A stretch of 64,000 nucleotides of DNA, taken from IMG/VR virus record IMGVR_UViG_3300046333_000090; one strand, written 5' to 3'. The stretch is from a virus. Below, piece by piece: positions 1 through 62,442 of this stretch (the first letter of the stretch is position 1; every line of letters begins with the position of its first letter). Made by a program: the position numbers and the translations under genes. A model generated the notes under the pieces. It was not told the origin of the DNA and did not search any database. It saw nothing but the letters and a program-made list of their open reading frames with translations.

Positions 1-3000
1 CATATTGGTGATTGACAGAAACACTAATATTATCCCCACCACAAACATTCGTATAATTGGCACTAGAAATAGCGTATACCCCAAAATTATCTAAATCAAT
101 TGGTACAATCGAAGTAAAGGTTTTATTTAATTCTACTAGTGGAATACCATTTATAGAATAAATCTCTACTACACTATTTGTTAAATGCTGAATGATTGAA
201 GTGTTATTCTTACCTCTACCACCAGCAGGGATAGTGATTAATTTTGTGCCATTATTCACATTAATATATGATAGGATCTCATCATCTATTTTGATATAAC
301 CTGGATTGGTGATAGATATTGGTAGATTATTTATAAATTGAGGTACCAATTCAGGAGTTTCTACTGGTATCGTTGTAGCCACTGTATACTGAGTGTCAGA
401 AATAATATCAGTCAATATAGTTGGAATATAATTAGACACTATATTCTTTATAGTCACACTGTTATTAGTGGTGTGCATCCCATGATTTTTGGAATATACA
501 CTAACTAAGTTGCTATTTTTTGTTGTGGTTATATAATTTCCAATAATTTCTGGGAGATTGTCTTCATTATTAAAATTAATATTTCCAGTCAAACTAAATT
601 TTGCTTTATTCAACTTGAATTTTATCGATTTCTTATTGTCTGCGATCCAATTTTTATAGTTTTGTGGGACGTATAGATTGGAAATATTAGGATTTTTGAT
701 TGAAACTATATCAGTTGTATTTTTTACTTCAAAGTCATTACTGAATATTTCATAATTATTTGAGTTAGATAGTACACAAATACAATATTGAGTATTGTCC
801 TTTAAGTATACCATATTATTAAATTTAATAATAGTAGGCGTATTTCCATCACTACTGGTAACTATATCTTTTGTATTTACGCTTATTTCTGAGTATGGTA
901 GAATAGTTTCAGTAGGATAGTTATTTTCAACAGTTCTCAACTGAACTATTAAAGGGATGAAATTATCTTTTTTGTTGAAGAATAGTTCTAATGAGGTGAT
1001 AAAGCAGCCACCAACAATATTGTTATTAAATGATTGAGTTATTGGACTATTCCAACCATTATTGTTGATGATATTACCATTGATCTGATTTTGAATTATG
1101 TTAGTGTCATTATTTTCAGGAATGCTTAGTGAGATGATGTCTTTAGTTTCGATGTTAGAATTGCCACCACACTGAAATATGGTTTTAGCAAATGTAGTAT
1201 TACCAATTGCGGATAACACTAGTGTTCCTACTGAAAATTTGTAATCGCTTTTAGTTGGGTTGGGAATAAATACATTTCCTGCAAAATTACCATTGTCATC
1301 ACTAATGATATCAGTGTTTGTCAAAATTGCAATTGCCCCCGAAGTTTGTCCAATGATGTATGTGCCGACTCCAATATCCTCCACATTAAACTGATACCCG
1401 TCATTCCAATTTATTTTTATGGTGTTAGTGGTGCCAGTGTACACTCCACTAGATAAACTATCTACTTTGGCGGATATATAATTTGATAGTACTGTTGGCT
1501 GATATCTTGAACCTGTTAATACTCTAGTATTGACATTTCTCCACAACAATTTTTCACCAACTACAAATGATATAGTATTAGTGCCATTAGTACCATCCTT
1601 TTTAATTACACAAGTAGAGGGTACTACTAGATCTGTAATATTTTTTGAATTTATATATACATCCAGTTTAGTGTTTGGTTTTAGTGCATCTATATTTATT
1701 TTTATAGTTTGTTGTTTTAAGTAATTGTTGGTGTTAGTATTTTTCTTAGTAGATTTGTTGCTGGTGATAGGCAACCAATTTTCTTTGTCAGAGTAATCTC
1801 CATAAAACCAATTGTCAGAACTAGGATGAGTGTTTATAACACCTTCCCAATTATTCAACGCATATGGATTGACCTTCAATACATAATTTTTGTTATTTTG
1901 TTCGATAAATGTTGCCTCAGTATATGGTAGACTGATTAAATTATTGCTTATTTTGTAACTACCATTATTAATTTTCAATTTTATATTTTTACTTGCAGTC
2001 TTTGGTACTAAAGTTTGATCATCGGGATTTATGCTGCTTTTATATGCTAAATTACTTATGTCGGATAATTGGTAATTTAAAAATTCATCTACCACAAATC
2101 CAGTCTTTAGTCGAACTATTCCAGTATTGTCTAGTAATACTGTATTATTGGCAGTAGATTCTAATTTGTTTAATGCTATTTCATTTTCTGTATTTTTTAT
2201 TCTTTTTTCTAAATTTCCAATATCTTCCATAGTGTATCTCTTGTTTGGATACACCACAGTTTTAATGTCACTAATAGCTTTAACTACTGGTGGGATTTGT
2301 AATGTTGCTATCGCCAAACAATCTTGTGGCAGATCGGGATTATTTGGATTGTTTGCCGAAATACCACTAATTATTCTACATTTACCAGTAGTATCTATTA
2401 TTAGTAAATCTGTTCTAGGAGTGTAATAATTATAATCACCTTTTAGTATGGTGCTTGGTGCAGGAAATGATCTTAGTTTTAATAGTCTGGTGCTGGGGTT
2501 TAGACCACTATACAACAAACTATATGGGGATAGGAGATTGCCTAGTCCAACAATTGTTGGAGATTTAGCATAGTATCTCAAATCGATTATATTAGTCTCT
2601 ATATCATCAGTTGGGTTGATGTAAGAATCAATACTCGTTATATCTCCTATACTAGTGTTAAAATAATCAAACACCACTACTAAATGATTGGTGGGTATGT
2701 TACTATTATTGATTATGGTCAATTTGTCGATGTCATGAATGTTATTATTACTATTTTTTATTAATTTGTAATTGCCAGTTACATCAATATAATTTCCTCT
2801 ATATACATTTGTCACTGTACTAGTAGTTGCAGTATTCCAATTGAACGCTGTATCAGCAATATTAAAATGATTGCTACTGTAATATATTAAATTTAATATA
2901 TTACCAGTTATGCCTATTATTTTGGCTTTTATATTCTTGTTATAAACAATATCACCTACATTAAATAATGAATTGTTGGATATAGTGATATTGTCGAAAC

Positions 3001-5373: not shown

Positions 5374-5405
5374 TATTTAGTTTAATATAAATATCTGTAT
5401 AAATA
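5374..5405. promoter_or_regulatory. Divergent T4-type late promoters (TATAAATA on + at 5386 and 5398; CTAAATA on - at 5374-5380)
   Basis: gp55-type consensus directly upstream of two divergent structural genes. Confidence 0.65.
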
Positions 5406-5419
5406 TTAAATTTAATAAA

Positions 5420-7164: not shown

Positions 7165-8868
7165 TCAAATAAATGGGAAAATCTGCACCACCTCAGCAAA
7201 CCAATTATTTATTTCGTTAGAACCTATTTCTTCGTAGCTATATTGAGTATTCGCATCAATCCAAAAAGATGTTAAAGTTTTCATAGAATAATATACTATT
7301 TCACTTCCTACATATTCATAATTTCTAATTTCATTAGAACCACTAGTGGTAAAGGTTACATTAAATTTGTTCAATTGTAAATAACCAGAACTCATGAATT
7401 CACTAGTGTCAACAACATTAATGACTCTTTGACCAATTAGCAAATCGGTAGTCATCGTAGTAATGGCAGGAGTGGGGTATTCATAATTACCACCAATATC
7501 GTTAACTAATTTTATTTTTTCTGCACCAAAGCTGTATTTTGTAGAAATATCGATCTGATTTTGGATGTCGCGCAAATTAGTAACATTAGACGAACCATAT
7601 GGTTCGATATCGTAGTCTAATACATGAGTAGTAGTTTCATAAACTACATCATTACCAGCAAATAATACATTAGTGGTAGTGTTATTAGTATATCCTACAA
7701 AATTGACATAATTATTGGCATCTTTATTGTATCTTATAGATGGAGGTGCAGAATATGTAATATCATCAGGTACTTGTGGATCTATATTTGGAGTGACAGT
7801 AGTGGTATAGTTATAAGTATGTAACAGCCAGCCATCAATGACACGAGAATTAAGAGTAGTAGCAGGAGGGTTAGTGATAGGAATTGGTGAATAGAACCTA
7901 TTAAATTTAATAGTTATTGCCCCAAAACTAGGAGAAACATAAGTAAAATCGTTATTTTTGGGGGTAATGTTACTAACGCCGAAACCAACAATATTAGTTT
8001 TGATGGGGATATCCAGCCAAGAAGTCACTACTATAGGATTATCTATATTACTGATACCATCTACAGGACTATCATTTTTGACAAATGTTGCACCATTGAG
8101 ATCTGCAATAGATGAGATGTGACTATTAGCAGTAGATAATATACTATTAGCAGTAGATAATCTGTTATTTGGGGTGGAGATGGGGACAATTTGCGAATTA
8201 TCCACATATTTGGTATTATTTTGTTCAGTATAGGGATTTGGCAATTTTAGATCATAATTACTAAAATTACTCACCGAATCTGAATTTGTAGGTAAATTTG
8301 GTGTAAATTTGGCATAATACGATATATTTTTATAATCTGTGGAATATTTACCAACTACTCCAGCACGATCTAATATTCCTTTTCCAGCTAATATTATGAC
8401 TTGAATTCCATTAACTGTGATAACCTGATTGACAGTAAAAGTAGCAGTGCCAGTATATTCAAAATATGAATATTTGTCAAACAAATTAACCACTTTTGTA
8501 ATAATTCCATTATTAAATGTATCACCCAATTTTAGTAAGTTTTTATTAGACCTTGGGTTTATAATGTAGTCAAATATGACTGCATTAGTAGTCATATCTG
8601 CATAATAAATGGTAGCATTAGGATTAGGTATTACAGATATAGCAGTAGCAACTAATTGAATAGTGCCTTGTAAATCTAATGTATAGTTATCTACGTTTTC
8701 TGGGGTAGATTCTGTTCGAGTATCTGCTTTATTAGCCGTGGACAGATTAAGAGTTAATTGATTTGATGGGATGACGAAAACATGGGCAAATGTGGTGTCG
8801 TCAGTATAAAATATGGGTAGGGGTGGGTTAATTGTTAAAGTTTTTTTGTAACTATTCTGGAGCGTCAT
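7165..8868 (-). CDS. Hypothetical virion structural protein
   Basis: 567-aa Thr/Asn-rich ORF directly downstream of gp25. Confidence 0.55.
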   Translation of the reverse strand: MTLQNSYKKTLTINPPLPIFYTDDTTFAHVFVIPSNQLTLNLSTANKADTRTESTPENVDNYTLDLQGTIQLVATAISVIPNPNATIYYADMTTNAVIFDYIINPRSNKNLLKLGDTFNNGIITKVVNLFDKYSYFEYTGTATFTVNQVITVNGIQVIILAGKGILDRAGVVGKYSTDYKNISYYAKFTPNLPTNSDSVSNFSNYDLKLPNPYTEQNNTKYVDNSQIVPISTPNNRLSTANSILSTANSHISSIADLNGATFVKNDSPVDGISNIDNPIVVTSWLDIPIKTNIVGFGVSNITPKNNDFTYVSPSFGAITIKFNRFYSPIPITNPPATTLNSRVIDGWLLHTYNYTTTVTPNIDPQVPDDITYSAPPSIRYNKDANNYVNFVGYTNNTTTNVLFAGNDVVYETTTHVLDYDIEPYGSSNVTNLRDIQNQIDISTKYSFGAEKIKLVNDIGGNYEYPTPAITTMTTDLLIGQRVINVVDTSEFMSSGYLQLNKFNVTFTTSGSNEIRNYEYVGSEIVYYSMKTLTSFWIDANTQYSYEEIGSNEINNWFAEVVQIFPFI

Positions 8869-10012: not shown

Positions 10013-10100
10013 TTTAATATAATAAAGTATATAATCATCATAACACAGATATTGATGTATCGCAATCATAAATATCTATAGAATTATTAAATTTAATAGA

Positions 10101-12635: not shown

Positions 12636-14951
12636 TCATACATCAATTATACTGATACTCACTGGGTCAGGAGTAGCTATTAAATAATTATTACCAGAAA
12701 CCAAAGTAAGAGTAACCGTCTTATTACCTTCTACAAAAGCACCAGTAATAGGAGTAATTATTAATTCTGTGGTAAGAATATTATTATTATCAAATGTAAT
12801 AACTGTGTCAACTAATTCATAATCAATACCATTAACCGCAATACCACCTAATATATAATTAACGCTCATAATACTAGTATTACCATCAGTCCTCGTAAAA
12901 GTAAATCCAGTGTTATTAGCATTAGCAACCACACTAACATCAGTAGGATCAATAATAGTCATAATAAATATGTCTGGTGTAAGTATTTCGTATCCACCTC
13001 CAGCAACTAATGTAATAGTAACTGTCTCAGAACCATCATTAAGCGCATCAAGAATAGGACGTATAGTTATAAAGGCATATTCAGAACCACGAGTAAATGT
13101 GACGGTATTATCCAGTAATTCATAATCAACACCATTAACCGCAGTACCACCTAATGTGTAATTAATAGTTAGAGGATTAGTATTGGAACCAGTTCTTTGT
13201 AATGTGAACGTCCCAATGAAGTCATCATTTTCCACAACAACAGGAAAATTAGCTGCATTCATAATCACACCAGCAAGAGAATCGTTAAGATTAATAGTAA
13301 CGGGATTAGGAGTAATAACGGTATATTCGCTACTGCCTAGCACAGTTAATTGAATATTTTCAGTTGGTTCTGCTACGTTATCAATAGTAGGATCAATTAT
13401 TAATTCAGCAGTGGCAGAACCAGCAGCAATTATGACAGAAGAATTAATTACTGTATAATCAACCCCATCAGTAGCAGTACCACCTAATGTGTAATTAATA
13501 GTTAAAGGATTAGTAGTGGAACCACTTCTTGTGAATGTATATGTAGCATTTACTACTTCATTTTCAACAATGCTCGTAGTACTAGCAACAGTGGTGATTT
13601 CAGGAAGTGCAGTAGTACTATCTAAAATATTAATACTTACCGGATCGGGAGTAATAGACACATATCCACTACCATCGACTAATGTAATAGAAACGGTTTC
13701 CGTTGCTTCGCTGTCTGCATCCACAATAGGAACGATTACCAAAGTAGAAGTAGCAGAATTGGCACCAAAAATAATAGAATTACCTACCGCAACATAATCT
13801 GCACTAGTGGTAGCAGTACCACCCAATATATAATTAACCGTCAATGGATTAGTAATATCGCCATTTCTTGTAAATGTATATACGGAATTGGTGTTTCCAT
13901 CTTCAGTGATATTAGTATTAGTCGCAAATAAACTAACATCAACGGGAATAGTATTACTTAATAAATTAATAATTACCGGATTAATACTAATAGAAATATA
14001 TCCGCTACCATTTATTAAATTTAATGATATTGTTTCTGTTTCCTCTTCAACATTATCAACAATAGGATTGATTACTAGTGTGGTGGTAGAAGAATTGGTA
14101 GCAAATATAGCTGAGGTACTAATTAATTCATAATCAACACCATTAACCGCAGTACCACCTAATGTGTAATTAATAGTTAGAGGATTAGCAGTGGAACCAC
14201 TTCTTGTGAATGTATATGTAGCATTTAATACTTCATTTTCAACAATAGTTGCCGTAGATGCAGTAACACTAACCTGAATATTACTTACCAACTCAAAATT
14301 AATAATATTTACAACAACTGGATTAACAGTATTTTTAATATATTCTGTATCATCAAGTAATTCTACAGAAATCGTTTCTGTAAATTCTACAATATTATCA
14401 GAAGTAGGATCGATTATCAGGGTGGCAGTATCAGATCCCGCAGGTATTATAATATTATCAGGTAATAACGCATAATCAAAACCATTAGTACAAGAACCGC
14501 TTAATATATAATTTACCACCAAGTCATAATTGTTATACCCAGTTCTAGTAAATGTATATACTAGATTGGTAGCACTATTTTCATCAGCAGTAGAAATAGT
14601 GGCAGATACACTGACCCCGACATCTTTAATTATATTTACTATAATTGGGGTAATAGTATCTACAGCATAATCAGCACTATCCACTAATGTTAAAGAAATA
14701 GCCTCATACAATTGAGTAAGATTAGTTGTGCGAGGATTAATAGTTAATGTAGTAGTATTAGATCCGGCGGGGATGACGATGGGAATTTTGGCAGAAATCG
14801 CACCAACATTATTACTATCAGTAAATCTATAAAAAATAGTCAATGGATTGTCTGTACTACCAGTTCTAATAAATGTAAATTCGATATAATGTATAGTATT
14901 TACCGAATTATAAACTCTAACTCTAGTATCATCAGAAATTAATATTGGCAT
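12636..14951 (-). CDS. Calx-beta repeat protein (~7 units), probable virion surface/adhesion protein
   Basis: Repeated YTFTRxG...LTxNYxLGGTAxxGxDY...IxPxxDxxxExxETxxxxL units. Confidence 0.8.
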   Translation of the reverse strand: MPILISDDTRVRVYNSVNTIHYIEFTFIRTGSTDNPLTIFYRFTDSNNVGAISAKIPIVIPAGSNTTTLTINPRTTNLTQLYEAISLTLVDSADYAVDTITPIIVNIIKDVGVSVSATISTADENSATNLVYTFTRTGYNNYDLVVNYILSGSCTNGFDYALLPDNIIIPAGSDTATLIIDPTSDNIVEFTETISVELLDDTEYIKNTVNPVVVNIINFELVSNIQVSVTASTATIVENEVLNATYTFTRSGSTANPLTINYTLGGTAVNGVDYELISTSAIFATNSSTTTLVINPIVDNVEEETETISLNLINGSGYISISINPVIINLLSNTIPVDVSLFATNTNITEDGNTNSVYTFTRNGDITNPLTVNYILGGTATTSADYVAVGNSIIFGANSATSTLVIVPIVDADSEATETVSITLVDGSGYVSITPDPVSINILDSTTALPEITTVASTTSIVENEVVNATYTFTRSGSTTNPLTINYTLGGTATDGVDYTVINSSVIIAAGSATAELIIDPTIDNVAEPTENIQLTVLGSSEYTVITPNPVTINLNDSLAGVIMNAANFPVVVENDDFIGTFTLQRTGSNTNPLTINYTLGGTAVNGVDYELLDNTVTFTRGSEYAFITIRPILDALNDGSETVTITLVAGGGYEILTPDIFIMTIIDPTDVSVVANANNTGFTFTRTDGNTSIMSVNYILGGIAVNGIDYELVDTVITFDNNNILTTELIITPITGAFVEGNKTVTLTLVSGNNYLIATPDPVSISIIDV

Positions 14952-14986
14952 AAAATTATTAAATTTAATATTTATATTTAGTTCAG

Positions 14987-17018: not shown

Positions 17019-17235
17019 TGTAACCCCAAATATTGGTATTAATATTTATAAAAAAACTCCCCATTATTAACAGGGAGTTATTAAATTTAATAATTATATT
17101 CTTCCAAAGTTTGTCTAGCTGCATCTTCTGCGGTTAACCCATTATTAATTAAATACCTGCGGCGCGATACTAGTTTACAAATCATTTGCTTATCGTTTTT
17201 TATACTAAAAATCAGTGTTTTTAATTTGGTGTCCA

Positions 17236-17956: not shown

Positions 17957-20443
17957 CTAGAACAGCAAATCTTCTAGTGTATTGGATTCAGTTAATTCCC
18001 ATCCTACAACATTTAGAACGCCCTCTAGGGGAGTTAAGAAACATTTCTCTAGCATTAAGTCGTGATCCACATACTGCTCTAACCCCATTTCTGGCGGTAT
18101 GCTGCCAAAAAAGGCAATAATATTCTCGTGGATGGGATTGGGCATCTTTAGATATACCGTTTTAATTTTATCACCATTTTTGATTAATTGATATTTTTTT
18201 TCCAAATTATTAACAAGAATATATCCATTATATACAATTGCAGACCTTGCACCAATAGGTGTCCCTTTTATGTATCCATTACTATACGGATCCGTATACT
18301 TGTTCACATCAGACACTCCACGCGCAACACCAATTTCGGCAGAAGTTAGCTTTTTGCTATCAGACCGTACCCGATCTACATATTCAATCAATTCTGAATT
18401 ATTAGAATTGATGATAACAGAATATGCAGAGTTCAACTTATCTCGAAAACACTTAGGAGTAGACGAACGTACTACTTCTAATCCAACTACCTTTAATTTT
18501 GGTTCTTTGTAGCGCACCCCTTCTGCATCATAAACATTAGATATGTATCGTTTTTTACCAGTAATCAAGAATTTACTAGAAATCGTGTCCCGAACCATCG
18601 TAAGACACTGCTTATACACATGCAAATATTCTCCCAGTTCGTCATATATTTCTGATATCTTTGGACTGATAATAGCTTGACAATATTCGTCCAAATAATC
18701 AACTATTTGCTCATTATTCATACCTTCACATTTAGCCAATACTAAATCGTTAAAATCAATAAACATAGAATCTGTATCGTTAGCAATAATACGGTCTTTA
18801 CTCTTGCCTACTAGTTCAGAAATAAATATGTTAATTCTGTCACTCGCGCAACGAATAGCGACTTGTCCAGTATGCGTAATTGAAGTAGCGTTTGCTAAGT
18901 TATAATACCTGAAATATGGCGATCCTAGAACACCATAAGCACTATTCATGGCAATTTTTTTGGCAAGCTGTATGTTATTGTAGGTAGATATATCTATCGC
19001 TAATTGCTCGGTAGGATTAATTTGATATTCCTTTTCTGCTTCTTTTTGTAATTTTTTATAATGTTTTCGTTCACTATAGTACTTTGACATTAGTTGAGAT
19101 AACATACCTTCACTAGTACGATCATACAACGTACCAGAAGGAGAAATACAATAATCGGTGTATCGAGAGAAGTCTAAACTTTCATTCAATACCTTTTCTA
19201 TTGTTATTTGTGGGTCAAATCCTCGTATAGTCTCTGGGGAGATATTAAGCAGTTGGATAATGTGAGGATACAGAGATGCCAAATCGAATGACACAACCCA
19301 ACTATACATACCAGGGTTAGGTTCTTTGACAAATGCACCATCAAATTTGTCATCTTTGGTATTATAAGCTTTAGAAGGAACTACTATATTTCTTTCTTTG
19401 AGGTAATTATAGATAATATTATCCCAGCAACATACTTGAGAATATACATCAGAGAAATTAATTTTGGCATCATATGATACTACTAATGCTAAGTCTAGTA
19501 GACCCATCTTTTCTTCTAATCGCCGGAGTAATCGTACATCTTGTAAATTATAAGAAGTAAATTTGAAAATGTTTTCAGTGTAGAATGAAATCCAACTACC
19601 ATACTCGCTATGATCTAACTTTTCTGCCCCCAATTCCACATTAGCAATATGATCCAATGAATAACTTTCTTGATTCTTATATGTAAACTTTTTGTAAAGC
19701 TGCATATAATCTAAGTGAGATACCCCTACGATCTCATACACAGTATATTCATTACCAAAATCATAATCCTTTTTAGTATGAATCCTACCCCAAGGTGACA
19801 ACTTCTTGCTATATGATTCACCCAAGACTAGATTGATTCGATTAATTATATAGGGAATATCAAATTTTATACCATTCCAACTAGAAAGAACATCTGGATA
19901 ATTATCTTTCCAATAATTAAGAAACCCAATCAGCATATCAGGTTCAGTGCTATATTGGTGATACACCGTATCTACTTCTTCTAAAGTTATATCTGCAATA
20001 CCATACACATTGTATATCTTTGTATATGAATCGTATAAAGTAAGACAAATTATACTCTCTTGTGGATCGTTTACATTGGGAAATCCATATTCGCTGGTAG
20101 TTTCGATATCCAAATAGAACTTCCTGACCAGTTCATTATTAAATTTAATAATTTCTGGAAACTTTTCTGATAACCATATATAGTTAAATTTCTCATAACC
20201 ATACACTTTGAAATCAGTTACATACTCGTACTCCTTAATAAAATCCTTTGCTTCTTTGACGGTATTGAAGGATTTTGGTGATACAAATTCGCCAGATAAA
20301 GTTTTATAATCAGTGGGAGTATTTGATTTTAGATATAAAGATGGGGAAATTGGTTCTTTGAATTGAACCCTTTTCCCATCCTGATACCCAATATAATATA
20401 TAATATTTCCGAAAAGTTTGCAGCTAACATACTGTGCAGACAT
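17957..20443 (-). CDS. gp43: Family B DNA polymerase gp43
   Basis: DIET exonuclease I, SFDLASLYPHII, KKIAMNSAYG, DTDS, KKRY motifs. Confidence 0.97.
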   Translation of the reverse strand: MSAQYVSCKLFGNIIYYIGYQDGKRVQFKEPISPSLYLKSNTPTDYKTLSGEFVSPKSFNTVKEAKDFIKEYEYVTDFKVYGYEKFNYIWLSEKFPEIIKFNNELVRKFYLDIETTSEYGFPNVNDPQESIICLTLYDSYTKIYNVYGIADITLEEVDTVYHQYSTEPDMLIGFLNYWKDNYPDVLSSWNGIKFDIPYIINRINLVLGESYSKKLSPWGRIHTKKDYDFGNEYTVYEIVGVSHLDYMQLYKKFTYKNQESYSLDHIANVELGAEKLDHSEYGSWISFYTENIFKFTSYNLQDVRLLRRLEEKMGLLDLALVVSYDAKINFSDVYSQVCCWDNIIYNYLKERNIVVPSKAYNTKDDKFDGAFVKEPNPGMYSWVVSFDLASLYPHIIQLLNISPETIRGFDPQITIEKVLNESLDFSRYTDYCISPSGTLYDRTSEGMLSQLMSKYYSERKHYKKLQKEAEKEYQINPTEQLAIDISTYNNIQLAKKIAMNSAYGVLGSPYFRYYNLANATSITHTGQVAIRCASDRINIFISELVGKSKDRIIANDTDSMFIDFNDLVLAKCEGMNNEQIVDYLDEYCQAIISPKISEIYDELGEYLHVYKQCLTMVRDTISSKFLITGKKRYISNVYDAEGVRYKEPKLKVVGLEVVRSSTPKCFRDKLNSAYSVIINSNNSELIEYVDRVRSDSKKLTSAEIGVARGVSDVNKYTDPYSNGYIKGTPIGARSAIVYNGYILVNNLEKKYQLIKNGDKIKTVYLKMPNPIHENIIAFFGSIPPEMGLEQYVDHDLMLEKCFLTPLEGVLNVVGWELTESNTLEDLLF

Positions 20444-21092: not shown

Positions 21093-22117
21093 GTACGTCT
21101 TTCTACCATATCCGAAACAGTTTTTCTATCCAAACTATAACGTCTAGATAATTCTCCTTTACTTACTCCTTCACTCCATAATCTTCTTATTTCTAATACT
21201 TGTTCGTCAGATACTTTACTATTCTTGTGCGAACTTCCAACCATTGTACGAGATTTGATGACAACACCTGGGAATATTTTACGCTCCACATGTTTAAAGC
21301 ATTCTCGTCTCAATATTCTCCCTACTTGTACTTGACTGATTTGGAATTTCTCACCAATTTCTTTTTGTGTCCATTTATGTATATCATACAATTCTACAAT
21401 ATGGAGAATATCTTCTTCACTTAAATCAGAATTAGTTCGGAATTTCTCGGCTTTATCATTATTATTGTCTATTCTGGAACCTTCAAATAAATTATCTGGG
21501 TGAACATTTAATTTATTATCATCTTTATGACATAAACATATATCTGAAGTTAATACTACCTTTGTTAGTTGATATATGATTCTATGTATTTTATGAGATG
21601 ATGGTTTTCCATTTTTACATAAAGTGATTTTAGGATAGCCATTAGTGGTACTATACTTACACAACCAAGTATTTTCATCTATTACATCTATCTTACCTTC
21701 CAATTTTTCGATCATATCTTGCAAATATATATCACTCAATCCTAATTTATTTACAATTGGCACACCAAAAATATTAAAATTAATATCTAATTCAATATAT
21801 GCACGAACTACTCGCACAATATTATATTTATCAATTAATCGATTTATTGTAGATGGCGAACTATTAAGTAATTTAGCTGCTTCTGATTGATGCCAATTAC
21901 ATTCTTCCAATGCTTCCATCAACTGTTCTCGACTAATGCTGCTGAATTTAGGTTTTTGTAGAAATATTAGTTCCTTTTTATTAATCCCCAATCGTTTAAT
22001 GTGAAGATGAATACCAGTTACACTGTATCCTAATTGTTTAGCTATATCAGAACCACTATGTACAGTTTTAGCAATATCAAGCAATTCTTTTTTCGTTAAA
22101 GTTATTTTATTAGCCAT
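21077..22117 (-). CDS. HNH homing endonuclease with multiple HTH domains
   Basis: HKIHRIIY...LCHKDDNKLNVHPDNLFEGSRIDNNND plus N- and C-terminal HTHs; directly downstream of the TerL IntN-bearing gene. Confidence 0.85.
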   Translation of the reverse strand: MANKITLTKKELLDIAKTVHSGSDIAKQLGYSVTGIHLHIKRLGINKKELIFLQKPKFSSISREQLMEALEECNWHQSEAAKLLNSSPSTINRLIDKYNIVRVVRAYIELDINFNIFGVPIVNKLGLSDIYLQDMIEKLEGKIDVIDENTWLCKYSTTNGYPKITLCKNGKPSSHKIHRIIYQLTKVVLTSDICLCHKDDNKLNVHPDNLFEGSRIDNNNDKAEKFRTNSDLSEEDILHIVELYDIHKWTQKEIGEKFQISQVQVGRILRRECFKHVERKIFPGVVIKSRTMVGSSHKNSKVSDEQVLEIRRLWSEGVSKGELSRRYSLDRKTVSDMVERRTWKHI

Positions 22118-24569: not shown

Positions 24570-24629
24570 TTTATTAAATTTAATAATTCTATACTGATAT
24601 TTATTGGTGTGTTTTTAATTATTAAATTT

Positions 24630-29876: not shown

Positions 29877-29893
29877 TTTAAATTATTAAATTT

Positions 29894-32934: not shown

Positions 32935-32949
32935 TTATTAAATTTAATA

Positions 32950-33760: not shown

Positions 33761-33775
33761 AAAAATTTATTAAAT

Positions 33776-37579: not shown

Positions 37580-38218
37580 ATGAAATTACTAATAGAATCA
37601 GCAGAACAAATAGAATACCTCACCGAAGAAGTAAATGGCACGAAACAATACTTTATTGAGGGGATTTTTCTTCAATCGGAGTTAGAAAACAAAAATGGAA
37701 GAATTTATCCAAAACACATTCTAGATAAAGAAGTAAAACGGTATATCAAAGAATCCATAGAACAAAATAAAGCAGTAGGAGAACTAAGTCACAGCAGCAG
37801 TATTTTACCAGATCCAAAATTAATATCTCATAAAATTATTTCTTTGAAGGAATCTGGCAATAATTATATTGGTAAGGCATTAGTATTGGATACACCTAAT
37901 GGGAAAATTGTAAAAGCTTTGATGGAAGGTGGAGTCAAATTCGGTGTATCTAGTAAAGGACTAGGCACACTTCAAGAGCGTAATGGTAAAAAATATGTAT
38001 CAGAAGATTATAAATTATCTACTGCTGGAGATTGCGTAATGGATCCTAGTGCGCCAGATGCTTATGTTAATGCAATTATGGAATCCACCGAGTATGATAT
38101 TGATAAAAATGGACTAATATACGAAATCAAATATAATATTCAAAGTGCTAACACTAAATCACAATTAGAAGAAGCGCGGTTAGGTGCATTCAAAAAATTA
38201 TTAAATTTAATAAAATGA
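37580..38218 (+). CDS. gp21: Prohead protease gp21
   Basis: FIEGIFLQ...NKNGRIYP...GELSH...TPNGKIVK...GVSSKGLG...DPSAPDAYV. Confidence 0.96.
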   Translation: MKLLIESAEQIEYLTEEVNGTKQYFIEGIFLQSELENKNGRIYPKHILDKEVKRYIKESIEQNKAVGELSHSSSILPDPKLISHKIISLKESGNNYIGKALVLDTPNGKIVKALMEGGVKFGVSSKGLGTLQERNGKKYVSEDYKLSTAGDCVMDPSAPDAYVNAIMESTEYDIDKNGLIYEIKYNIQSANTKSQLEEARLGAFKKLLNLIK

Positions 38219-38619
38219 ATGATAAAAATGTATTACCAATTCCTCAATTAAGTACTAATGATGGAAACATTTATATTTTAAAGGACAGATACGTAATTAA
38301 TTTCAGTAAATATTTTAATTTTGATATAGTGGTGCCAAAAAATTATAAATCCGATCTAGCATCTGTACCAAAATTATTAAGGTGGATTATAGATAGAGCA
38401 TCACTAGGTTTAGTGGCACCATTATTGCATGACTATATATGTTTTAAAAAGGGGAGAATTATAAGCATAGATGGAGCAATGTATGAACTAACTTGGTTTG
38501 AATGTCATTTATTATTTTTATTGGTGATGAATATAACAGGGATTCATTGGTTTCGTGCTACTTTATGTTTTTTAGCAGTATTGATCGGTGTTAAGTATTG
38601 GGAAAATAATAAATACTAA
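38215..38619 (+). CDS. DUF1353-like protein
   Basis: IVVPKNYKSDLASVPK...LLHDYI. Confidence 0.75.
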   Translation: MNDKNVLPIPQLSTNDGNIYILKDRYVINFSKYFNFDIVVPKNYKSDLASVPKLLRWIIDRASLGLVAPLLHDYICFKKGRIISIDGAMYELTWFECHLLFLLVMNITGIHWFRATLCFLAVLIGVKYWENNKY

Positions 38620-38629
38620 ATTTAATAAA

Positions 38630-42434: not shown

Positions 42435-42608
42435 ATTAAATTTAATAATTAATCAAAATGTTCATCATACCACCAGAATTGCATAGTAGTATAAAAAAAA
42501 AATTTATCGGTAGTGATAATATTATATGGAGTGAACATCAAGTTTTTCCAAATAATTAGAGAATATTTAAAGTCGCTCCAACCAAACATAATTTGTCTAA
42601 ACGACCAT

Positions 42609-47055: not shown

Positions 47056-47248
47056 TTTTTTATCTGTTACTTTTTAAAATTATTCTTTGTAACTGTAGTG
47101 AGATCCAAGAACAGTTTAAATAAACCCATCCTGCATGTTTAATTACTGCCAATGGTCTAAAGCCAAAAAGATCTATATAAATCCATTTTGAATCAAACTC
47201 TCCCTTGTGAAAATATATCCTATTGTGCTTAATCATTAAATTTAATAA

Positions 47249-51333: not shown

Positions 51334-52077
51334 CTAATAACTTCTACCATTAGCAGCAAGATTAAGGGAACCGTTGTATAGATCAGAATGATTTCTATAC
51401 ATGCTTATTGCTACCCAATTCTTAAAATTGGCATATTTGATAGAAAAACTCCAATAATTATTTTCAGAAGTATTTCTCAGCACATCTATTAATTTTAATA
51501 ATTTGCGATCTTCTTCTATCACAGAGGCTTTGTTTTTATTAAAAGCATATAAGAAAGATACCCCTCCTTGTAATAATTCTTCTTTATCAAAAAACTCTAT
51601 ATATCTTTTTTCTAATGTAATGTAATTATGCAAATCGTCATATGCACTTACCAGTTTCTTATTTTCCTCCCAATGATAATTAACAATATATAAAGGACTA
51701 CGCTCAAAAATTTGTGGAACAATATTGTCTTTCAAATTATATTCAGGAGCAGAGTTTAAATAATAATGATTAATAGGTCTACCAATAATACGACAACAAA
51801 GATTTTCCAGATGACATTTGTATCTATGTTGTCTAATCTTATCTCTAAATTCTTTCTGGCTGCTTATATTAATAATATCGCGAGAAACATACATCTTTAA
51901 TGTGTGTCCAGACAACAAATAATGTAGTTTATCATCAATATTCAGTAGATGCAAGAAAGCATTAATAGTGGCTAATGTTTTTAGCCTAATCGGATAATAC
52001 TTATATTGATCGGAATCATCACTAGTCGTAGAAATTTGTAATACTGTTGGTTTAACAAACTTTATAAAATATGCCAT
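51334..52077 (-). CDS. Hypothetical protein between gp47 and gp46
   Basis: 247-aa ORF, no recognised motif. Confidence 0.55.
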   Translation of the reverse strand: MAYFIKFVKPTVLQISTTSDDSDQYKYYPIRLKTLATINAFLHLLNIDDKLHYLLSGHTLKMYVSRDIINISSQKEFRDKIRQHRYKCHLENLCCRIIGRPINHYYLNSAPEYNLKDNIVPQIFERSPLYIVNYHWEENKKLVSAYDDLHNYITLEKRYIEFFDKEELLQGGVSFLYAFNKNKASVIEEDRKLLKLIDVLRNTSENNYWSFSIKYANFKNWVAISMYRNHSDLYNGSLNLAANGRSY

Positions 52078-53430: not shown

Positions 53431-54015
53431 TTATACTATCTCCAGATTTCTATATTTTAACTCGATAGAATCTTTTAAAGCTTGCTTCTCATGTTCCTCC
53501 AAACCACCTCCATTAAAGAAATAACTAAACTCTGAAAAATCTATAATTTTATTTTTTATCTCTTGCTGCTTCTTCTCAATCGCGATAGTGCGAATGAACG
53601 CAAAATAACAAATTTGAGTAAAGTAGGAGAATGGGTTAGTACTTATAGCAGGATCGAAATTGGTGATAGACTTTAGACAATTTTCTACTGCATTATTAAT
53701 CATGTCCTGTTTATAGGTATAATTAACAAATCCACCACCTTGAGAAAATCGATATGCAATCTTTTCTATCTGAATTAATAAGTAATTACTTACCATTGGT
53801 TTATCTAGTATATTAGCAATTAAATACTCGTAAGTGCATCTAAGATAATACAATTTTAATATATTAGTAGTAGAGGGTAACTGTTCTTTAAAGAGAATTA
53901 TTAAATTTAATACTTTGGATTTCCAGTCGAGTATCTTGGTCTTGTGTTCAATCAAGGCATCTGCAAATGCTACATTGTCAACATAGTGTTTTGGTTCTTT
54001 GGTGGTTCTTGGCAT
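53431..54015 (-). CDS. gp55: Late sigma factor gp55
   Basis: HYVDN..F..AL; FVNYTYKQDMI..AVENC...FDP..STNPFSYFTQICYFAFIR.I..EKKQ. Confidence 0.93.
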   Translation of the reverse strand: MPRTTKEPKHYVDNVAFADALIEHKTKILDWKSKVLNLIILFKEQLPSTTNILKLYYLRCTYEYLIANILDKPMVSNYLLIQIEKIAYRFSQGGGFVNYTYKQDMINNAVENCLKSITNFDPAISTNPFSYFTQICYFAFIRTIAIEKKQQEIKNKIIDFSEFSYFFNGGGLEEHEKQALKDSIELKYRNLEIV

Positions 54016-58857: not shown

Positions 58858-58891
58858 ATATTTTTTAGTGAGGTATTAAATTTAATAGATT

Positions 58892-59446: not shown

Positions 59447-59510
59447 GAGGTTTAGATTATTAAATTTAATAATGTACTCTTACAGTATAACATACTATTA
59501 ATATTAATGC

Positions 59511-59903: not shown

Positions 59904-61536
59904 GATAAATATAAGAGTAGACAATAAAAAAAAGTCTACTATTTCTAGTAAACTTATCAACTCAATATTATTTATGCTAAATCAAACTATCCCATTCTCA
60001 CCAGACATTTTCATTTCCGACATTGGTAAGTTCCAATTATGGACACTTGCTAACAGTATTAAACTTAATAATAGATCGAATTTTTCTATGCAAGAGATGC
60101 AAGATGCTCTAGGGTATGGAATGAGAACGATCCAGAAGCATATGTCAAGCAATCTATTCTATCATAGAGAAGAGCAGATTGAACTAGGATATACCAAAGA
60201 CAGCGATTATGTATGGTTCAAAGATAAAAATTTGTACCACTATGATGAAAATCGTACAACTATATACTCACTATTTCCTAAACCTTTTGATGAAGTAAAA
60301 AATATTTTAGGATTTATTAGAGAATTATCTTTAGTTGAAATCTCACCAGAAGAATTGCATAGAGATAATGTAAAAGTTACTCATATTACTGCAACAGAAT
60401 ATATTTTACGCAATCAAAAAATTGAATATCAATCATCACTACAAACTGATAAATTAATTCTAGATACTGAATCAATCTTTAGTGATGTAGATAATGTAAA
60501 GGGAGTCCTTAATACTAATAGAGAAGAGTTAGTATTGTTGAATGGTGATGTAGTAAATACTAAAACATCTGTCACCCAAAAAGAAATCGCTAATTATTTG
60601 GGGAAATCTATTGGATATGTATCAAGAAATCTGAGAAATGCAGATATCGATACTAAAATTGTATATGCTACTACTGAAGAACTGAACAAAAAAGTCGGTA
60701 AATATTTCAAAGAAAATCCAGATAAAAAAGCTGGTTTTTTTCAAAATATTGGGTTTGTGTCAGTCATGGGTGGCAAAGTTTTTAAGAAGATCGGCAATAT
60801 ATACAACAAGACTTACAATTTTGTTAAAGGAGTTGTTGAAACAGTTGTAGAGACTATTAAAGAAAAATTTTTGCATTTTTTTGATGTTCATACCGATTTA
60901 CAATTGCATAAAGTGTATCAAGCATTTAAAACAGAACAAAAAAAATTAGGTCAAAATGTGCCTGGAGTTTGGAATCAACTTACTATAAATTTTTTAAATG
61001 ATTCGTTTGATGATATCATTATTAAACCAGATGAAGTCATCTATTATGAGGCAGAAAAAAACAATCCTGAATATGGAGAACCAGGATGGCAAAGAATTAG
61101 TGTCAAGAGTGCCGTTAGAAAATACGTTGCAGCACTTAATGATAGTCAATATAACGAATATATACTTGCAAAAGATGATATTAATGAACTTTATAATGAT
61201 GCCATCAGTCAATTAGCAGAATACCATTATCGTGATTCTCACCCAGAAAAAGCAGAATTATTTGCCGAAAAAGATAGAATCCAAAGAATTGCATCAGAAA
61301 AAGCAAAACAGCACCAAAAAGATGTTCAACAAAGAAATCAACAAGAAAAAAATTTAGTTGCGAAATATGAAAAAAAAGCAGGCGTGAGTGAGATGTTTGA
61401 CGACAAAGCAGAAGATAAATCTTTACAAAAAGATCTTGATTATGCAGTCAAATTGGGGGAGAAATATTGGAATGAGATGTTAGATAAATCTGTGCCAGGA
61501 GAAGATGAAATGATGGATTTTATTGCATTGTTCTAG
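59902..61536 (+). CDS. Large protein with two HTH motifs, possible replication initiator or regulator
   Basis: SMQEMQDALGYGMRTIQKHM and TQKEIANYLGKSIGYVSRNL; charged C-terminal helix. Confidence 0.6.
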   Translation: MINIRVDNKKKSTISSKLINSILFMLNQTIPFSPDIFISDIGKFQLWTLANSIKLNNRSNFSMQEMQDALGYGMRTIQKHMSSNLFYHREEQIELGYTKDSDYVWFKDKNLYHYDENRTTIYSLFPKPFDEVKNILGFIRELSLVEISPEELHRDNVKVTHITATEYILRNQKIEYQSSLQTDKLILDTESIFSDVDNVKGVLNTNREELVLLNGDVVNTKTSVTQKEIANYLGKSIGYVSRNLRNADIDTKIVYATTEELNKKVGKYFKENPDKKAGFFQNIGFVSVMGGKVFKKIGNIYNKTYNFVKGVVETVVETIKEKFLHFFDVHTDLQLHKVYQAFKTEQKKLGQNVPGVWNQLTINFLNDSFDDIIIKPDEVIYYEAEKNNPEYGEPGWQRISVKSAVRKYVAALNDSQYNEYILAKDDINELYNDAISQLAEYHYRDSHPEKAELFAEKDRIQRIASEKAKQHQKDVQQRNQQEKNLVAKYEKKAGVSEMFDDKAEDKSLQKDLDYAVKLGEKYWNEMLDKSVPGEDEMMDFIALF

Positions 61537-62326: not shown

Positions 62327-62442
62327 AAGATATAGGTTAACAATAAAGAAATATATCTTAATAGTAAAGCAGAGTCCTTTAATTATTAAATTTAATAATT
62401 AATTATTGGTTCAGATTTTCCAAACAAAAAAATCTTTAACTT

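What the first reader, a model, noticed from the sequence alone, without database searches (positions are those of the whole stretch)
814..62402. Highly iterated palindrome (T)ATTAAATTTAAT(A): >=20 copies, about one per 3 kb, also inside coding sequence
Seen near 816, 2885 (extends to a 26-bp perfect palindrome 2879-2904), 5404, 7898, 10085, 14957, 17078, 24571, 24619, 27601, 29883, 32935, 33767, 38198, 42433, 47235, 53899, 58874, 59456 and 62379 (24 bp), plus a one-mismatch copy at 38614. A rough i.i.d. estimate at ~70% AT gives ~0.2 copies of the 12-mer core per 64 kb. Many lie 1-10 nt upstream of start codons (gp8, gp6, Calx-beta, TerL-middle, DUF1353, gp3) or abut terminators. At least six are in coding frames (e.g. 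LLNLI). Inference: a genome-wide binding site for a dimeric phage protein (operator, DNA-organising/parS-like or packaging signal), or a phage counterpart of cyanobacterial HIP1. An RNA hairpin controlling translation initiation is an alternative.
Basis: partly seen in the sequence, partly recalled or inferred. Interest (0 to 1): 0.78.

Follow-up and report, generated by a model that had tools for sequence, protein, structure and literature searches.

The report
Iterated AT-only palindrome in T4-like phage
An uncultured T4-like phage carries one invariant 16-20-bp AT-only palindrome about every 2.6 kb, at gene boundaries and also written into long genes, most likely as docking sites for an unidentified two-fold-symmetric DNA-binding protein; nothing like it is described for T4-like phages.

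Summary
ATTAAATTTAAT occurs 22 times in the window, against 0.13-0.4 expected. Twenty copies extend to TATTAAATTTAATA, and five more differ by one base. The full consensus is AATTATTAAATTTAATAATT. No other palindrome is enriched.

The host is a T4-like myovirus with ordinary TATAAATA late promoters and no Shine-Dalgarno sites, so the palindrome is neither of these.

Selection acts on the nucleotides. Inside genes the motif is read as IKFN or LNLI, both over-represented, and 10 of 11 occurrences use exactly the palindrome's codons. Three coding copies are kept in relatives that are 77-84% identical in DNA. Spacing is more even than chance: 34 sites in 86 kb, CV 0.56, P about 0.0003. More distant relatives, 160 other T4-like loci, GenBank phages and 185,000 prokaryote genomes lack the array.

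Best reading (0.5): a genome-wide set of binding sites for a dimeric, probably phage-encoded protein. The binder is not identified. The 59902 HTH protein is not supported, and I could not fetch the ParB-like gene that other readers noted upstream.

Several genes are bracketed by copies, and one indel between relatives sits exactly at a copy, so a recombination role is a live rival.

Other first-stage readers noted the same palindrome in three overlapping or adjacent windows of this genome. The scan has also noted analogous palindrome arrays in other phages.

The parts
818..829 (.). Palindrome copy inside the giant DUF4815 gene (2-5347, minus strand), read as IIKFNN; perfect palindrome of 20 bp.
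   Evidence: Kept in relative L274 at position 2241 within an 18-nt identical run.
2879..2904 (.). Copy extended to a 26-bp perfect palindrome inside the DUF4815 gene, read as NILNLIY.
   Evidence: It lies in the longest identical run (38 nt) of the 6.9-kb, 77%-identity alignment with L274.
5405..5416 (.). Copy 3 nt upstream of the gp8 start codon (5420). TATAAATA late promoters lie 11 nt upstream (5386) and overlapping it (5398).
   Evidence: The L274 copy here has one mismatch.
7900..7911 (.). Copy inside the 567-aa gene (7165-8868, minus strand), read as TIKFNR.
10086..10097 (.). Copy in a 31-nt divergent intergenic region: 3 nt upstream of gp6 (10101) and 16 nt upstream of the HNH gene (10069, minus strand).
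14014..14025 (.). Copy inside the Calx-beta gene (12636-14951, minus strand), read as SLNLI.
14958..14969 (.). Copy 6 nt upstream of the Calx-beta gene start. A late promoter overlaps it (TATAAAT followed directly by the palindrome).
17080..17091 (.). Copy directly abutting a terminator-like hairpin, between the 130-aa gene and the neck-protein gene.
20138..20149 (.). Copy inside the DNA polymerase gene, read as IIKFNN, about 10 codons before the exonuclease DIE motif.
   Evidence: Kept in L289 (82% nt identity) and L290 (84%) with changed flanks. Relatives at 68-69% aa identity read (I/S)KFD here, which cannot encode the palindrome.
24573..24584 (.). Copy 3 nt upstream of the start codon of the middle terminase piece (24569, minus strand), downstream of an ATAAATA late promoter.
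   Evidence: Kept in L289 at 2939.
24621..24632 (.). Copy abutting the hairpin of a ~120-nt dispersed cassette, 15-16 nt upstream of the late promoter.
27603..27614 (.). Copy in the region upstream of the tail sheath gene.
29885..29896 (.). Copy 8 nt after the sheath gene stop codon, abutting a terminator hairpin.
32937..32948 (.). Copy 2 nt after the tail-tube gene stop codon, abutting a hairpin. It forms one side of the bracket around the HNH unit.
33769..33780 (.). Copy 8 nt upstream of the HNH gene start (33760, minus strand). It contains the stop codon of the upstream gene.
38200..38211 (.). Copy in the last codons of the prohead protease gene (read as LLNLIK, then stop), 3 nt upstream of the DUF1353 gene start.
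38614..38627 (.). One-mismatch copy (TACTAAATTTAATA) that holds the DUF1353 stop codon and lies 2 nt (3 nt from the 12-mer core) upstream of the next ATG. Together with 38200 it brackets the DUF1353 gene.
42435..42446 (.). Copy beside a bidirectional terminator hairpin downstream of the major capsid gene block.
47235..47246 (.). Copy at the boundary between two minus-strand genes, 2 nt after a stop codon.
53900..53911 (.). Copy inside the 194-aa gene (53431-54015, minus strand), read as VLNLII.
58875..58886 (.). Copy 17 nt upstream of the uvsY start codon and 5 nt after the stop codon of the upstream gene.
59459..59470 (.). Copy 12 nt upstream of gene 58892-59446 (minus strand). With 58875 it brackets that gene.
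62379..62402 (.). Copy extended to a 24-bp perfect palindrome, upstream of a tRNA gene and the second TnpB copy.
568..581 (.). One-mismatch copy inside the DUF4815 gene.
21772..21785 (.). One-mismatch copy inside gene 21077-22117. It splits the 4.4-kb gap between 20138 and 24573.
51487..51500 (.). One-mismatch copy inside gene 51334-52077. It splits the largest gap (6.7 kb).
60057..60070 (.). One-mismatch copy near the 5' end of the HTH protein gene (59902-61536).

Best explanation
The palindrome AATTATTAAATTTAATAATT (invariant 12-14-bp core) is a DNA-level element. I read it as a genome-wide array of binding sites for one sequence-specific, two-fold-symmetric (dimeric) DNA-binding protein, most likely encoded by the phage.

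Sites sit in the little non-coding space this compact genome has: between a late promoter and the start codon, or between a stop codon and a terminator hairpin. Where genes are too long to offer such space, the site is written into the reading frame as IKFN or LNLI. As a result no stretch longer than about 5-7 kb lacks one.

Because the site contains only A and T, it does not disturb the unstructured, Shine-Dalgarno-free leaders.

What the bound protein does is inferred, not shown. It may mark, organise or insulate the phage chromosome, as ParB/KorB-type clamps or global operators do. Being the only sequence shared by otherwise unrelated intergenic regions, the sites also act as junctions for gene-cassette exchange.

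Shown: enrichment, symmetry, nucleotide-level selection in coding sequence, conservation in close relatives, over-even spacing, and restriction to one lineage.

Inferred: protein binding, the identity of the binder, and the function.
For: - Enrichment is about 100-fold and unique among palindromes.
- The motif is sharply defined: 20 perfect 14-mers, 7 with one mismatch, and two-mismatch copies at background level.
- Conservation of the flanks is symmetric and follows base preference, with no compensatory variation. This points to sequence recognition rather than selection for a fold.
- In coding sequence, IKFN occurs 6 times (0.45 expected from composition) and LNLI 5 times (1.2 expected). Ten of these 11 occurrences use exactly the palindrome's codons, where codon usage predicts 24% and about 5%.
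- Coding copies at 818 and 2886 are kept in L274 at 77% nt identity, and 2886 lies in the longest identical run of 1225.
- The DNA polymerase copy is kept in L289 and L290 with altered flanks, whereas relatives at 68-69% aa identity read (I/S)KFD there.
- Spacing has CV 0.55 in the window (P about 0.002-0.004, also against a null that respects gene boundaries). Over 34 sites in 86 kb, including upstream loci of the same phage, CV is 0.56 and P is 0.00025.
- One-mismatch copies split the two largest gaps.
- The site's position relative to the TATAAATA late promoters varies: overlapping it, 8-13 nt downstream, or 15-18 nt upstream. At three promoters the expected start falls inside the site, so the whole palindrome is not in those RNAs.
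- The RNA hairpin is marginal at -1.9 kcal/mol.
- No prokaryote genome among 185,579 species carries more than one copy of the 20-mer. This argues against a host regulator's regulon and for a phage-encoded binder.
Against: - No binder is identified.
- The in-window candidate P0121 has only sub-threshold ParB/KorB HTH matches. Its candidate recognition helix is not conserved in its ortholog P0122, which comes from the same samples as the relative contigs that carry the same site. A homolog also exists in a relative without the array.
- The ParB-like gene that other first-stage readers noted 30-61 kb upstream could not be fetched or checked.
- Five copies sit at exactly 3 nt from an ATG, a precision that a pure organising array does not predict.
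- Part of the multiplicity comes from repeated modules that share flanking homology: a late promoter-spacer-palindrome-ATG module and a ~120-nt cassette-hairpin-palindrome module.
- The synonymous-site argument for any single copy is weak in a genome this AT-rich.
Confidence: 0.5

Rival explanations
1. Recombination site. The palindrome's main role is to serve as an orientation-free crossover point, either by microhomology for the T4-type recombination machinery (as proposed for PeSLs) or as a site for a recombinase. Genes or gene blocks bracketed by two copies could then be excised, inserted or inverted.
For: - Four gene units are bracketed by copies: DUF1353 (38200 and 38614), the HNH unit (33769 and 32937), gene 58892-59446 (59459 and 58875), and both copies of a 265-276-aa gene in L289.
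- Relative to the window, L289 has that gene inserted exactly at the position of copy 24621. A left half-site remains at one junction and a full copy at the other.
- In L274 the synteny break after gp8 carries cassette, hairpin and palindrome.
- Copies sit at 7 of about 13 strand-switch points but at only about 8 of 59 other boundaries (my count).
- An IS607-family serine recombinase is encoded at 31401-31979.
Against: - This reading does not explain the conserved in-frame copies inside DNA polymerase and other single-copy genes, nor the over-even spacing.
- Only 2 of about 4 breakpoints seen between close relatives involve a copy.
- Eighty identical recombination sites would be a heavy liability for the genome.
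- The boundaries of the TnpB copies do not coincide with the palindrome.
- Junction use can be a by-product of any conserved intergenic sequence, as argued for PeSLs (PMC4122927).
Confidence: 0.2
2. RNA-level signal. The AU-only sequence in 5' and 3' untranslated regions acts in the transcript, as a leader that promotes or regulates translation initiation, or as a target for an endoribonuclease or an RNA-binding protein that punctuates polycistronic messages.
For: - Ten of 23 copies lie within 20 nt upstream of a start codon, five at exactly 3 nt, and seven lie within 12 nt after a stop codon.
- The phage uses no Shine-Dalgarno sites: 6 of 51 genes have an SD-like 4-mer.
- Two nearby copies can pair with each other in one RNA, at -16 kcal/mol.
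- There is a published analogy in the Start Associated Sequences of Cluster K mycobacteriophages (PMC3203893).
- A possible Sm-like protein is encoded at 55450-55887, although the match is below threshold.
Against: - An RNA signal read from one strand has no need for perfect two-fold symmetry over 16-20 nt.
- The single-copy hairpin is marginal.
- Most late genes, including those for the major capsid, sheath and portal proteins, have AT-rich leaders without the motif.
- At three late promoters the transcript should start inside the motif.
- Coding copies and even spacing are not predicted.
Confidence: 0.12
3. Passenger of selfish elements. The copies are footprints, ends or target sites of the HNH, cassette or IS607-type mobile elements that crowd this genome, and have no function for the phage.
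For: - The ~120-nt cassette ends in hairpin plus palindrome at three places, and HNH genes lie next to several copies.
- The first-stage notes on cassettes and the HNH family in this genome agree with this.
Against: - Most copies share no flanking homology beyond 16-20 bp.
- The coding copies are in frame, conserved in relatives, and not associated with any element.
- The hairpins next to the palindrome differ in sequence.
- The even spacing is unexplained.
Confidence: 0.08
4. Host-factor site. The palindrome is bound by a nucleoid protein or global regulator of the unknown host, which the phage recruits.
For: AT-rich dyad sites with a central AAATTT and symmetric TpA steps are typical of DNA-bending host proteins. 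This rests on general knowledge and was not tested.
Against: - The 20-mer occurs once at most in any of 185,579 species genomes, with 61 scattered single hits.
- Host-factor sites are usually degenerate, whereas these are nearly invariant.
- The array is absent from related phages of similar GC content, which probably infect similar hosts.
Confidence: 0.07

Closest known systems
17-bp dyad repeat of Cluster O mycobacteriophages (Corndog; TGTTCGG-N3-CCGAACA; PMC4351075, PMC6439249)
   Same: More than 30 nearly invariant dyad-symmetric copies in about 70 kb of a non-temperate phage. They are spread through the genome, many intergenic or near gene starts, and about a third lie in coding sequence. 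The authors predict a dimeric binder and state that the function is unknown; those phages also encode a ParB-like domain protein.
   Different: The sequences are unrelated: GC-rich and gapped there, AT-only and ungapped here. The host and phage type differ (siphovirus of Mycobacterium versus T4-like myovirus). The Cluster O authors saw few, if any, rearrangements at their repeats, whereas here some indels and bracketed genes sit at copies. Even spacing and codon-level selection were shown here; I did not find them addressed in the passages read.
KorB with its OB operators on plasmid RK2, and ParB-parS and Noc-NBS (ParB-family HTH proteins on 13-16-bp palindromes)
   Same: Identical palindromes of similar length are dispersed over a replicon at and away from promoters, including inside genes. 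A dimeric HTH protein is the expected reader (established knowledge of the family).
   Different: I verified no ParB-family CTPase in this phage. The site sequence is unrelated. The density is higher, about 1 per 2.6 kb over more than 86 kb. The setting is a lytic T4-like phage.
PeSLs, the promoter-early stem-loop cassettes of T4-type phages (PMC2839356, PMC4122927)
   Same: Both are repeated intergenic regulatory modules in T4-like genomes, placed next to stem-loops and found at indel and exchange junctions between close relatives.
   Different: PeSLs are composites of terminator, sigma70 promoter and Shine-Dalgarno site. They are degenerate, confined mostly to hyperplastic regions, and neither palindromic nor found in coding sequence. 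The element here is a short invariant palindrome found throughout structural and replication modules and inside genes.
Start Associated Sequences of Cluster K mycobacteriophages (PMC3203893)
   Same: A conserved short repeat lies 3-7 bp upstream of the start codons of a subset of genes. Stop codons of upstream genes sometimes lie within it. The function is unknown.
   Different: SAS are asymmetric, present in one orientation, contain the Shine-Dalgarno core, and are restricted to the non-structural half of the genome. Here the element is palindromic, has no SD, is also associated with stop codons and terminators, and occurs in coding sequence.
HIP1 (GCGATCGC) of cyanobacteria
   Same: A highly iterated palindrome that also occurs in coding sequence.
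   Different: HIP1 is 8 bp, GC-rich, chromosomal and linked to methylation. There is no sequence or size relation; the comparison is only an analogy.

Membership tests
ParB-parS / KorB-OB / Noc-NBS system | Multiple near-identical 13-16-bp palindromic sites on the replicon | tested here: met
   22 perfect 12-mers and 20 perfect 14-mers, with a 16-20-bp consensus.
ParB-parS / KorB-OB / Noc-NBS system | A ParB-family protein (N-terminal CTPase domain with GxxRxxA, plus HTH) encoded by the same genome | tested here: inconclusive
   In the window, only P0121 shows ParB/KorB-type HTH matches, and both are below the curated cut-offs: PF08535 at 19.7 bits against 22.3, and TIGR00180 at 16.6 against 58.5. 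No ParBc domain was detected. A ParB-like gene noted by other first-stage readers 30-61 kb upstream could not be fetched.
ParB-parS / KorB-OB / Noc-NBS system | Specific binding, and CTP-dependent spreading from the site | not testable with these tools
   Needs EMSA, ChIP-seq or in vitro loading assays.
PeSL (promoter-early stem-loop) cassette | Composite of terminator stem-loop, sigma70-type early promoter, Shine-Dalgarno site and start codon | tested here: not met
   The palindrome itself has no promoter or SD. Only 5 of 22 copies abut a stem-loop. The phage lacks SD sites. Copies occur inside genes.
PeSL (promoter-early stem-loop) cassette | Located at indel or exchange junctions between closely related phages | tested here: inconclusive
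   Two of about 4 breakpoints against L274 and L289 carry a copy. One insertion lies exactly at copy 24621 and leaves a half-site.
Cluster O-type dispersed dyad repeat (descriptive class, function unknown) | More than 30 invariant dyad-symmetric copies spread through a non-temperate phage genome, partly in coding sequence | tested here: met
   34 copies in 86 kb, about a quarter to a third in coding sequence. Description of the class from PMC4351075.
Start Associated Sequence (Cluster K) | Asymmetric, single orientation, contains the SD core, 3-7 bp upstream of ATG | tested here: not met
   The element is palindromic, has no SD, and only 8 of 23 copies lie within 8 nt of an ATG.
T4-type late promoter | TATAAATA at -10 | tested here: not met
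   TATAAATA occurs 26 times on its own, with 14 intergenic copies 14-45 nt upstream of start codons. The palindrome is a separate element at variable distance from it.
Intrinsic terminator or regulatory RNA hairpin | A stable stem-loop in the transcript | tested here: not met
   The 20-mer folds at -1.9 kcal/mol. Rfam finds no family match in the window other than one tRNA.
HIP1 | The octamer GCGATCGC iterated in a cyanobacterial chromosome | tested here: not met
   The sequence, length and replicon all differ.

The most novel reading that the evidence does not exclude
The palindrome is the universal boundary site of an orientation-free gene-cassette system in a T4-like phage. Any two copies can recombine at the dyad centre, through a dedicated recombinase or the phage's own recombination machinery, to excise, capture or invert the DNA between them. 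This would explain the genes bracketed by copies, the half-site left at an insertion junction, and the unusually mixed gene orientation of the baseplate module. It would resemble an integron, but with one short perfect palindrome in place of attC.
Probability: 0.12. Interest if true: 0.85.

Novelty: new variant of a known kind. Interest (0 to 1): 0.62.

Why it matters
T4-like phages are among the best-studied viruses, yet no genome-wide invariant palindrome has been described for them. I found none in 160 related loci from public collections, in GenBank phages or in the literature searched.

Here the site is selected strongly enough to dictate codons, and even amino acids (D to N in the DNA polymerase), in essential genes, and to keep a regular spacing. 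This implies a protein-DNA system that acts on the whole chromosome.

Together with the unexplained Cluster O repeats and other arrays this scan has noted in large phages, it points to a recurrent and still unexplained way in which lytic phages mark or organise their DNA. Possible roles are self-marking in a phage that may lack modified bases, global transcription insulation, or cassette exchange.

The site is short, exact and easy to test: by pull-down, by EMSA, and by end mapping in metatranscriptomes of the source lakes or waters.

Tried and rejected
- **Late promoter.** Rejected. TATAAATA is present separately, 26 times.
- **Shine-Dalgarno substitute.** Rejected as the explanation. The phage has no SD anywhere, and most late genes lack the palindrome.
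- **Peptide-driven repeat.** Rejected. Codon choice and peptide over-representation show that the DNA drives the peptides.
- **Structure selected by covariation (cruciform or hairpin).** No covariation beyond base preference.
- **Shared motif of T4-like phages.** Rejected. 80 IMG/VR and 80 metagenome loci around gp8 homologs lack it. TAAATTTA hits in four of those loci I inspected (L116, L165, L168, L184) have varied flanks and no palindrome context.
- **Exact-pattern scans.** The 16-mer in IMG/VR gave only scattered hits of one or two sites per contig in AT-rich contigs. A lineage-specific 24-mer gave none. The 20-mer in 185,579 species genomes gave 61 single hits.
- **GenBank phages.** No DNA match.
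- **P0121 as binder.** No PDB relative. Only 6 homologs among 1.8 billion representatives. The AlphaFold models were poor, with pLDDT 35 and 53, so no fold search was made. The candidate recognition helix is not conserved.
- **Multi-HTH protein 21077-22117.** It looks like an HNH-type homing endonuclease with HTH modules, judged by eye from an HNH-like motif in the alignment, which Pfam did not call as an HNH domain. I did not pursue it.
- **TnpB or IS607 ends as the origin of the site.** The 98%-identical TnpB copies begin 450 nt from the nearest palindrome.
- **Walking upstream to the reported ParB-like gene.** The walk reached about -25 kb and then stalled, because only short contigs were returned. 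The records are not held for whole-record search.
- **Literature.** The exact 12-mer gave only unrelated papers. A search for ParB arrays in lytic phages gave nothing relevant.
Full report
**What is there**

The 12-mer ATTAAATTTAAT occurs 22 times in the 64-kb window, against 0.13 expected from dinucleotide shuffles. Markov models of order 0-5 expect 0.15-0.41, and models trained after masking the copies expect 0.13-0.27. No other 12-mer palindrome occurs more than three times, and every other AT-only 12-mer palindrome occurs 0 or 1 time.

Twenty copies extend to TATTAAATTTAATA. Seven 14-mers carry one mismatch (0.5 expected), and two-mismatch copies are at background (8 against 6.1), so the motif is unusually sharp. 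Flank statistics give the consensus AATTATTAAATTTAATAATT. The next two positions outward are A in 42/44 and 34/44 half-sites, followed by T-rich positions. Complementarity beyond that follows base preference, with no compensatory variation.

**The genome**

PHROG and Pfam matches identify a T4-like myovirus:

| Gene | Coordinates |
|---|---|
| gp8 | 5420-6895 |
| gp25 | 8875-9243 (named from synteny with annotated relatives) |
| gp6 | 10101-11957 |
| gp15 | 14987-15784 |
| neck protein | 16158-17018 |
| DNA polymerase | 17957-20443 |
| terminase pieces | 22158-24569 and 25845-27068 |
| tail sheath | 27900-29876 |
| portal | 35477-37057 |
| prohead protease | 37580-38218 |
| scaffold | 39495-40421 |
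| major capsid protein | 40461-41846 |
| gp45 clamp | 45763-46446 |
| gp46/47-like | 48604-53118 |
| UvsW | 55884-58322 |
| UvsY | 58372-58857 |

The capsid protein is at most 58% identical to those of cyanomyoviruses. No GenBank phage matches at the DNA level.

The T4 late promoter TATAAATA is present 26 times, with 14 intergenic copies 14-45 nt upstream of start codons. Only 6 of 51 genes have a Shine-Dalgarno-like 4-mer, and leaders are about 85-90% A+T. The palindrome is therefore neither the late promoter nor a ribosome-binding substitute peculiar to some genes.

**Placement**

About 15 copies are at gene boundaries, which make up roughly 8% of the sequence. Six are well inside long ORFs, and one is in the last codons of the protease gene.

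- Ten of 23 copies (including the near copy at 38614) lie within 20 nt upstream of a start codon. Five of these (before gp8, gp6, the terminase middle piece, DUF1353 and the next gene) are exactly 3 nt upstream.
- Seven lie within 12 nt after a stop codon.
- Five abut GC-rich hairpins at 0-2 nt.
- In upstream loci of the same phage, the common layout is stop codon, palindrome, hairpin, U-tract, with hairpins of different sequence.

The position relative to late promoters is not fixed.
- The promoter overlaps the site (TATAAAT followed directly by the palindrome) at 5398, at 14969 and in L290.
- The promoter lies 8-13 nt upstream of the site at gp8, gp6, the terminase piece and in L289.
- The site lies 15-18 nt upstream of the promoter at 24621, L274:8432 and L284:1878.

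From established knowledge of T4 late promoters, transcription starts about 6 nt after TATAAATA. In the overlapping cases the transcript would therefore begin at the centre of the palindrome and could not contain all of it.

**Selection at the nucleotide level**

In coding sequence the motif is read in the two open frames, as (I)IKFN(N) or xLNLI.

- In the window's ORFs, IKFN occurs 6 times (0.45 expected from amino-acid composition) and LNLI 5 times (1.2 expected). Near-neighbour peptides such as IKFD, VKFN and LNLV occur 0-2 times.
- Five of six IKFN and five of five LNLI use exactly the palindrome's codons, where codon usage predicts 24% and about 5%. A few of these ORFs are short frames that overlap intergenic copies, which inflates the count slightly but does not change the direction.

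**Conservation and range**

Walking through public assemblies recovered several related loci.

- *The same phage from other samples* (L276-L287) shows 12 more copies in the 25 kb upstream of the window, including two inside a giant YHYH-domain gene.
- *Close relatives.* L274 is 79% identical in gp8 protein and 77% in DNA over 6.9 kb. It keeps both copies inside the DUF4815 gene, and the 26-bp palindrome lies in the longest identical run (38 nt) of 1225 runs. L289 and L290 are 82% and 84% identical in DNA within the polymerase gene. Both keep the copy in the DNA polymerase gene, while the neighbouring bases vary.
- *Polymerase homologs at 68-69% amino-acid identity* read (I/S)KFD at that place, which cannot encode the site.
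- *A more distant relative* (L275 plus L288; 56% in gp8) has one copy in 31.5 kb and no other iterated palindrome.
- *Wider collections.* Eighty IMG/VR and eighty metagenome loci around gp8 homologs at 45% identity or less lack the array. The 20-mer occurs at most once in any of 185,579 prokaryote species genomes.

The array is thus confined to one narrow lineage and is maintained within it.

**Spacing**

| Set | Sites | CV of gaps | Null CV | P |
|---|---|---|---|---|
| Window, uniform null | 22 | 0.55 | 0.93 | 0.002 |
| Window, boundary-aware null | 22 | 0.55 | 0.91 | 0.004 |
| Window plus upstream loci, 86 kb | 34 | 0.56 | 0.96 | 0.00025 |

The boundary-aware null draws boundary copies only from real gene boundaries. 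With the upstream loci, the mean gap is 2.6 kb. The one-mismatch copies at 21772 and 51487 split the two largest gaps.

**Interpretation**

The evidence has six parts:
- strict dyad symmetry of sequence rather than of pairing;
- near-invariance;
- nucleotide-level selection in genes;
- retention in relatives;
- even spacing;
- absence from cellular genomes.

Together these fit a DNA site read by a symmetric dimer encoded by the phage and needed at intervals along the whole chromosome.

An AT-only site can sit in unstructured leaders and 3' ends without creating RNA structure. The single-copy hairpin is worth -1.9 kcal/mol. This may explain both its composition and its placement in the only free space of very short intergenic regions.

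What the protein does is not shown. The closest published parallel is the 17-bp dyad repeat of Cluster O mycobacteriophages, with more than 30 invariant copies, a third of them in genes, a predicted dimeric binder and unknown function (PMC4351075). The closest mechanistic models are KorB-OB, ParB-parS and Noc-NBS.

**The binder**

I could not identify it.

It has two HTH motifs and only sub-threshold matches of one HTH to KorB and ParB models. It has no PDB relative and only six homologs among 1.8 billion representatives. The structure models were poor. Its ortholog P0122, from the same samples as L274 and so presumably from the sister lineage, is 66% identical, but the candidate recognition helix of the ParB-like HTH differs at 5 of 9 residues although the site is identical. 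A 30% homolog sits at the same place in the relative that lacks the array. None of this supports P0121.
- *ParB-like gene upstream.* Other first-stage readers noted a ParB-like CTPase/HTH gene 30-61 kb upstream. I could not reach it, so that link is untested.

**Recombination**

Several units are bracketed by copies:
- DUF1353, an insertion between the protease and scaffold genes (38200 and 38614);
- an HNH gene with its cassette (33769 and 32937);
- gene 58892-59446 (59459 and 58875);
- both copies of a 265-276-aa gene in L289, whose homolog in the window (38630-39421) sits elsewhere and also has a copy before its ATG.

Relative to the window, L289 carries that gene inserted exactly at the position of copy 24621. 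The left half of the site remains at one junction and a full copy at the other. L274 differs from the window after gp8 at a cassette-hairpin-palindrome module.

This resembles what was proposed for PeSLs in T4-type phages (PMC4122927). The genome also encodes an IS607-family serine recombinase. However, TnpB copy boundaries do not coincide with the site, and only about half of the few breakpoints seen involve it. Recombination also does not explain the conserved in-frame copies or the spacing. I therefore rank it as a secondary consequence or rival (0.2).

**RNA-level rival**

The start and stop proximity recalls the Start Associated Sequences of Cluster K phages (PMC3203893). Symmetry, coding copies, spacing and the promoter overlaps all argue against it (0.12).

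**Verdict**

The DNA-site reading is the best supported (0.5), but without a binder or a function. It is a new variant of a known but unexplained kind of phage feature, and new for T4-like phages.

Noticed in passing
window 30203-31979 (minus strand) and 62831-64000: An IS607-family element, with the TnpA serine recombinase at 31401-31979 (NF033518, E 2e-50) and TnpB at 30203-31423, sits between the tail sheath and tail tube genes of a T4-like phage. A second TnpB copy, 98.4% identical and without TnpA, starts at 62831 and runs off the window.
   Followed up: partly
window 9284-10069, 24735-25433, 33164-33760, 42609-43355; also 34741-35439 and 44722-45378: There are at least four free-standing HNH_3 endonuclease genes and two NUMOD3 or HTH homing-type genes. 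Gene 21077-22117 combines about four HTH modules with an HNH-like motif that I saw by eye; Pfam did not call an HNH domain there.
   Followed up: partly
window 24625-24746, 29889-30001, 32941-33060; partial copies at 9246-9325, 15784-15863 and 27074-27133: A dispersed non-coding cassette of about 120 nt ends in a hairpin and then the palindrome. Truncated copies lack both the hairpin and the palindrome. Copies are also present in relatives L274 and L289.
   Followed up: partly
window 22158-24569, 25845-27068, 12020-12445: The large terminase is encoded in separate pieces on different strands. The relative's middle piece carries intein and LAGLIDADG matches. A gp16-like small terminase match lies at 12020-12445.
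   Followed up: no
window 48604-51333 and 55884-58322: The gp46-like SMC_N protein has a weak LAGLIDADG match, suggesting a possible intein. UvsW is 812 aa here but 1145 aa, with intein domains, in the sister lineage.
   Followed up: no
window, all gene starts: There is no Shine-Dalgarno signal: 6 of 51 genes have an SD-like 4-mer, and G is at 4-14% in the 10 nt before start codons. This points to a host that does not rely on SD pairing.
   Followed up: yes
window 39451-39470, 27860-27873, 5386-5405: TATAAATA late promoters occur as tandem overlapping copies, three in a row before the scaffold gene.
   Followed up: no
window 62481-62553: One tRNA gene (Rfam RF00005, 48 bits) lies between a palindrome copy and the second TnpB.
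   Followed up: no
window 6896-7165 compared with L276 and L277-L280: A strain-level polymorphism lies just after gp8: a 67-aa ORF in some samples and a 75-aa ORF in others.
   Followed up: no
window 55450-55887: A 145-aa protein gives a just-below-threshold Sm-like domain match (PF16243, 28.4 bits against a cut-off of 29.4). It is conserved next to UvsW in the sister lineage.
   Followed up: no
L284 9171-9671 (same phage, about 13 kb upstream of the window): A phage-type Dam N6-adenine methyltransferase (PF05869) lies next to two HNH genes.
   Followed up: no
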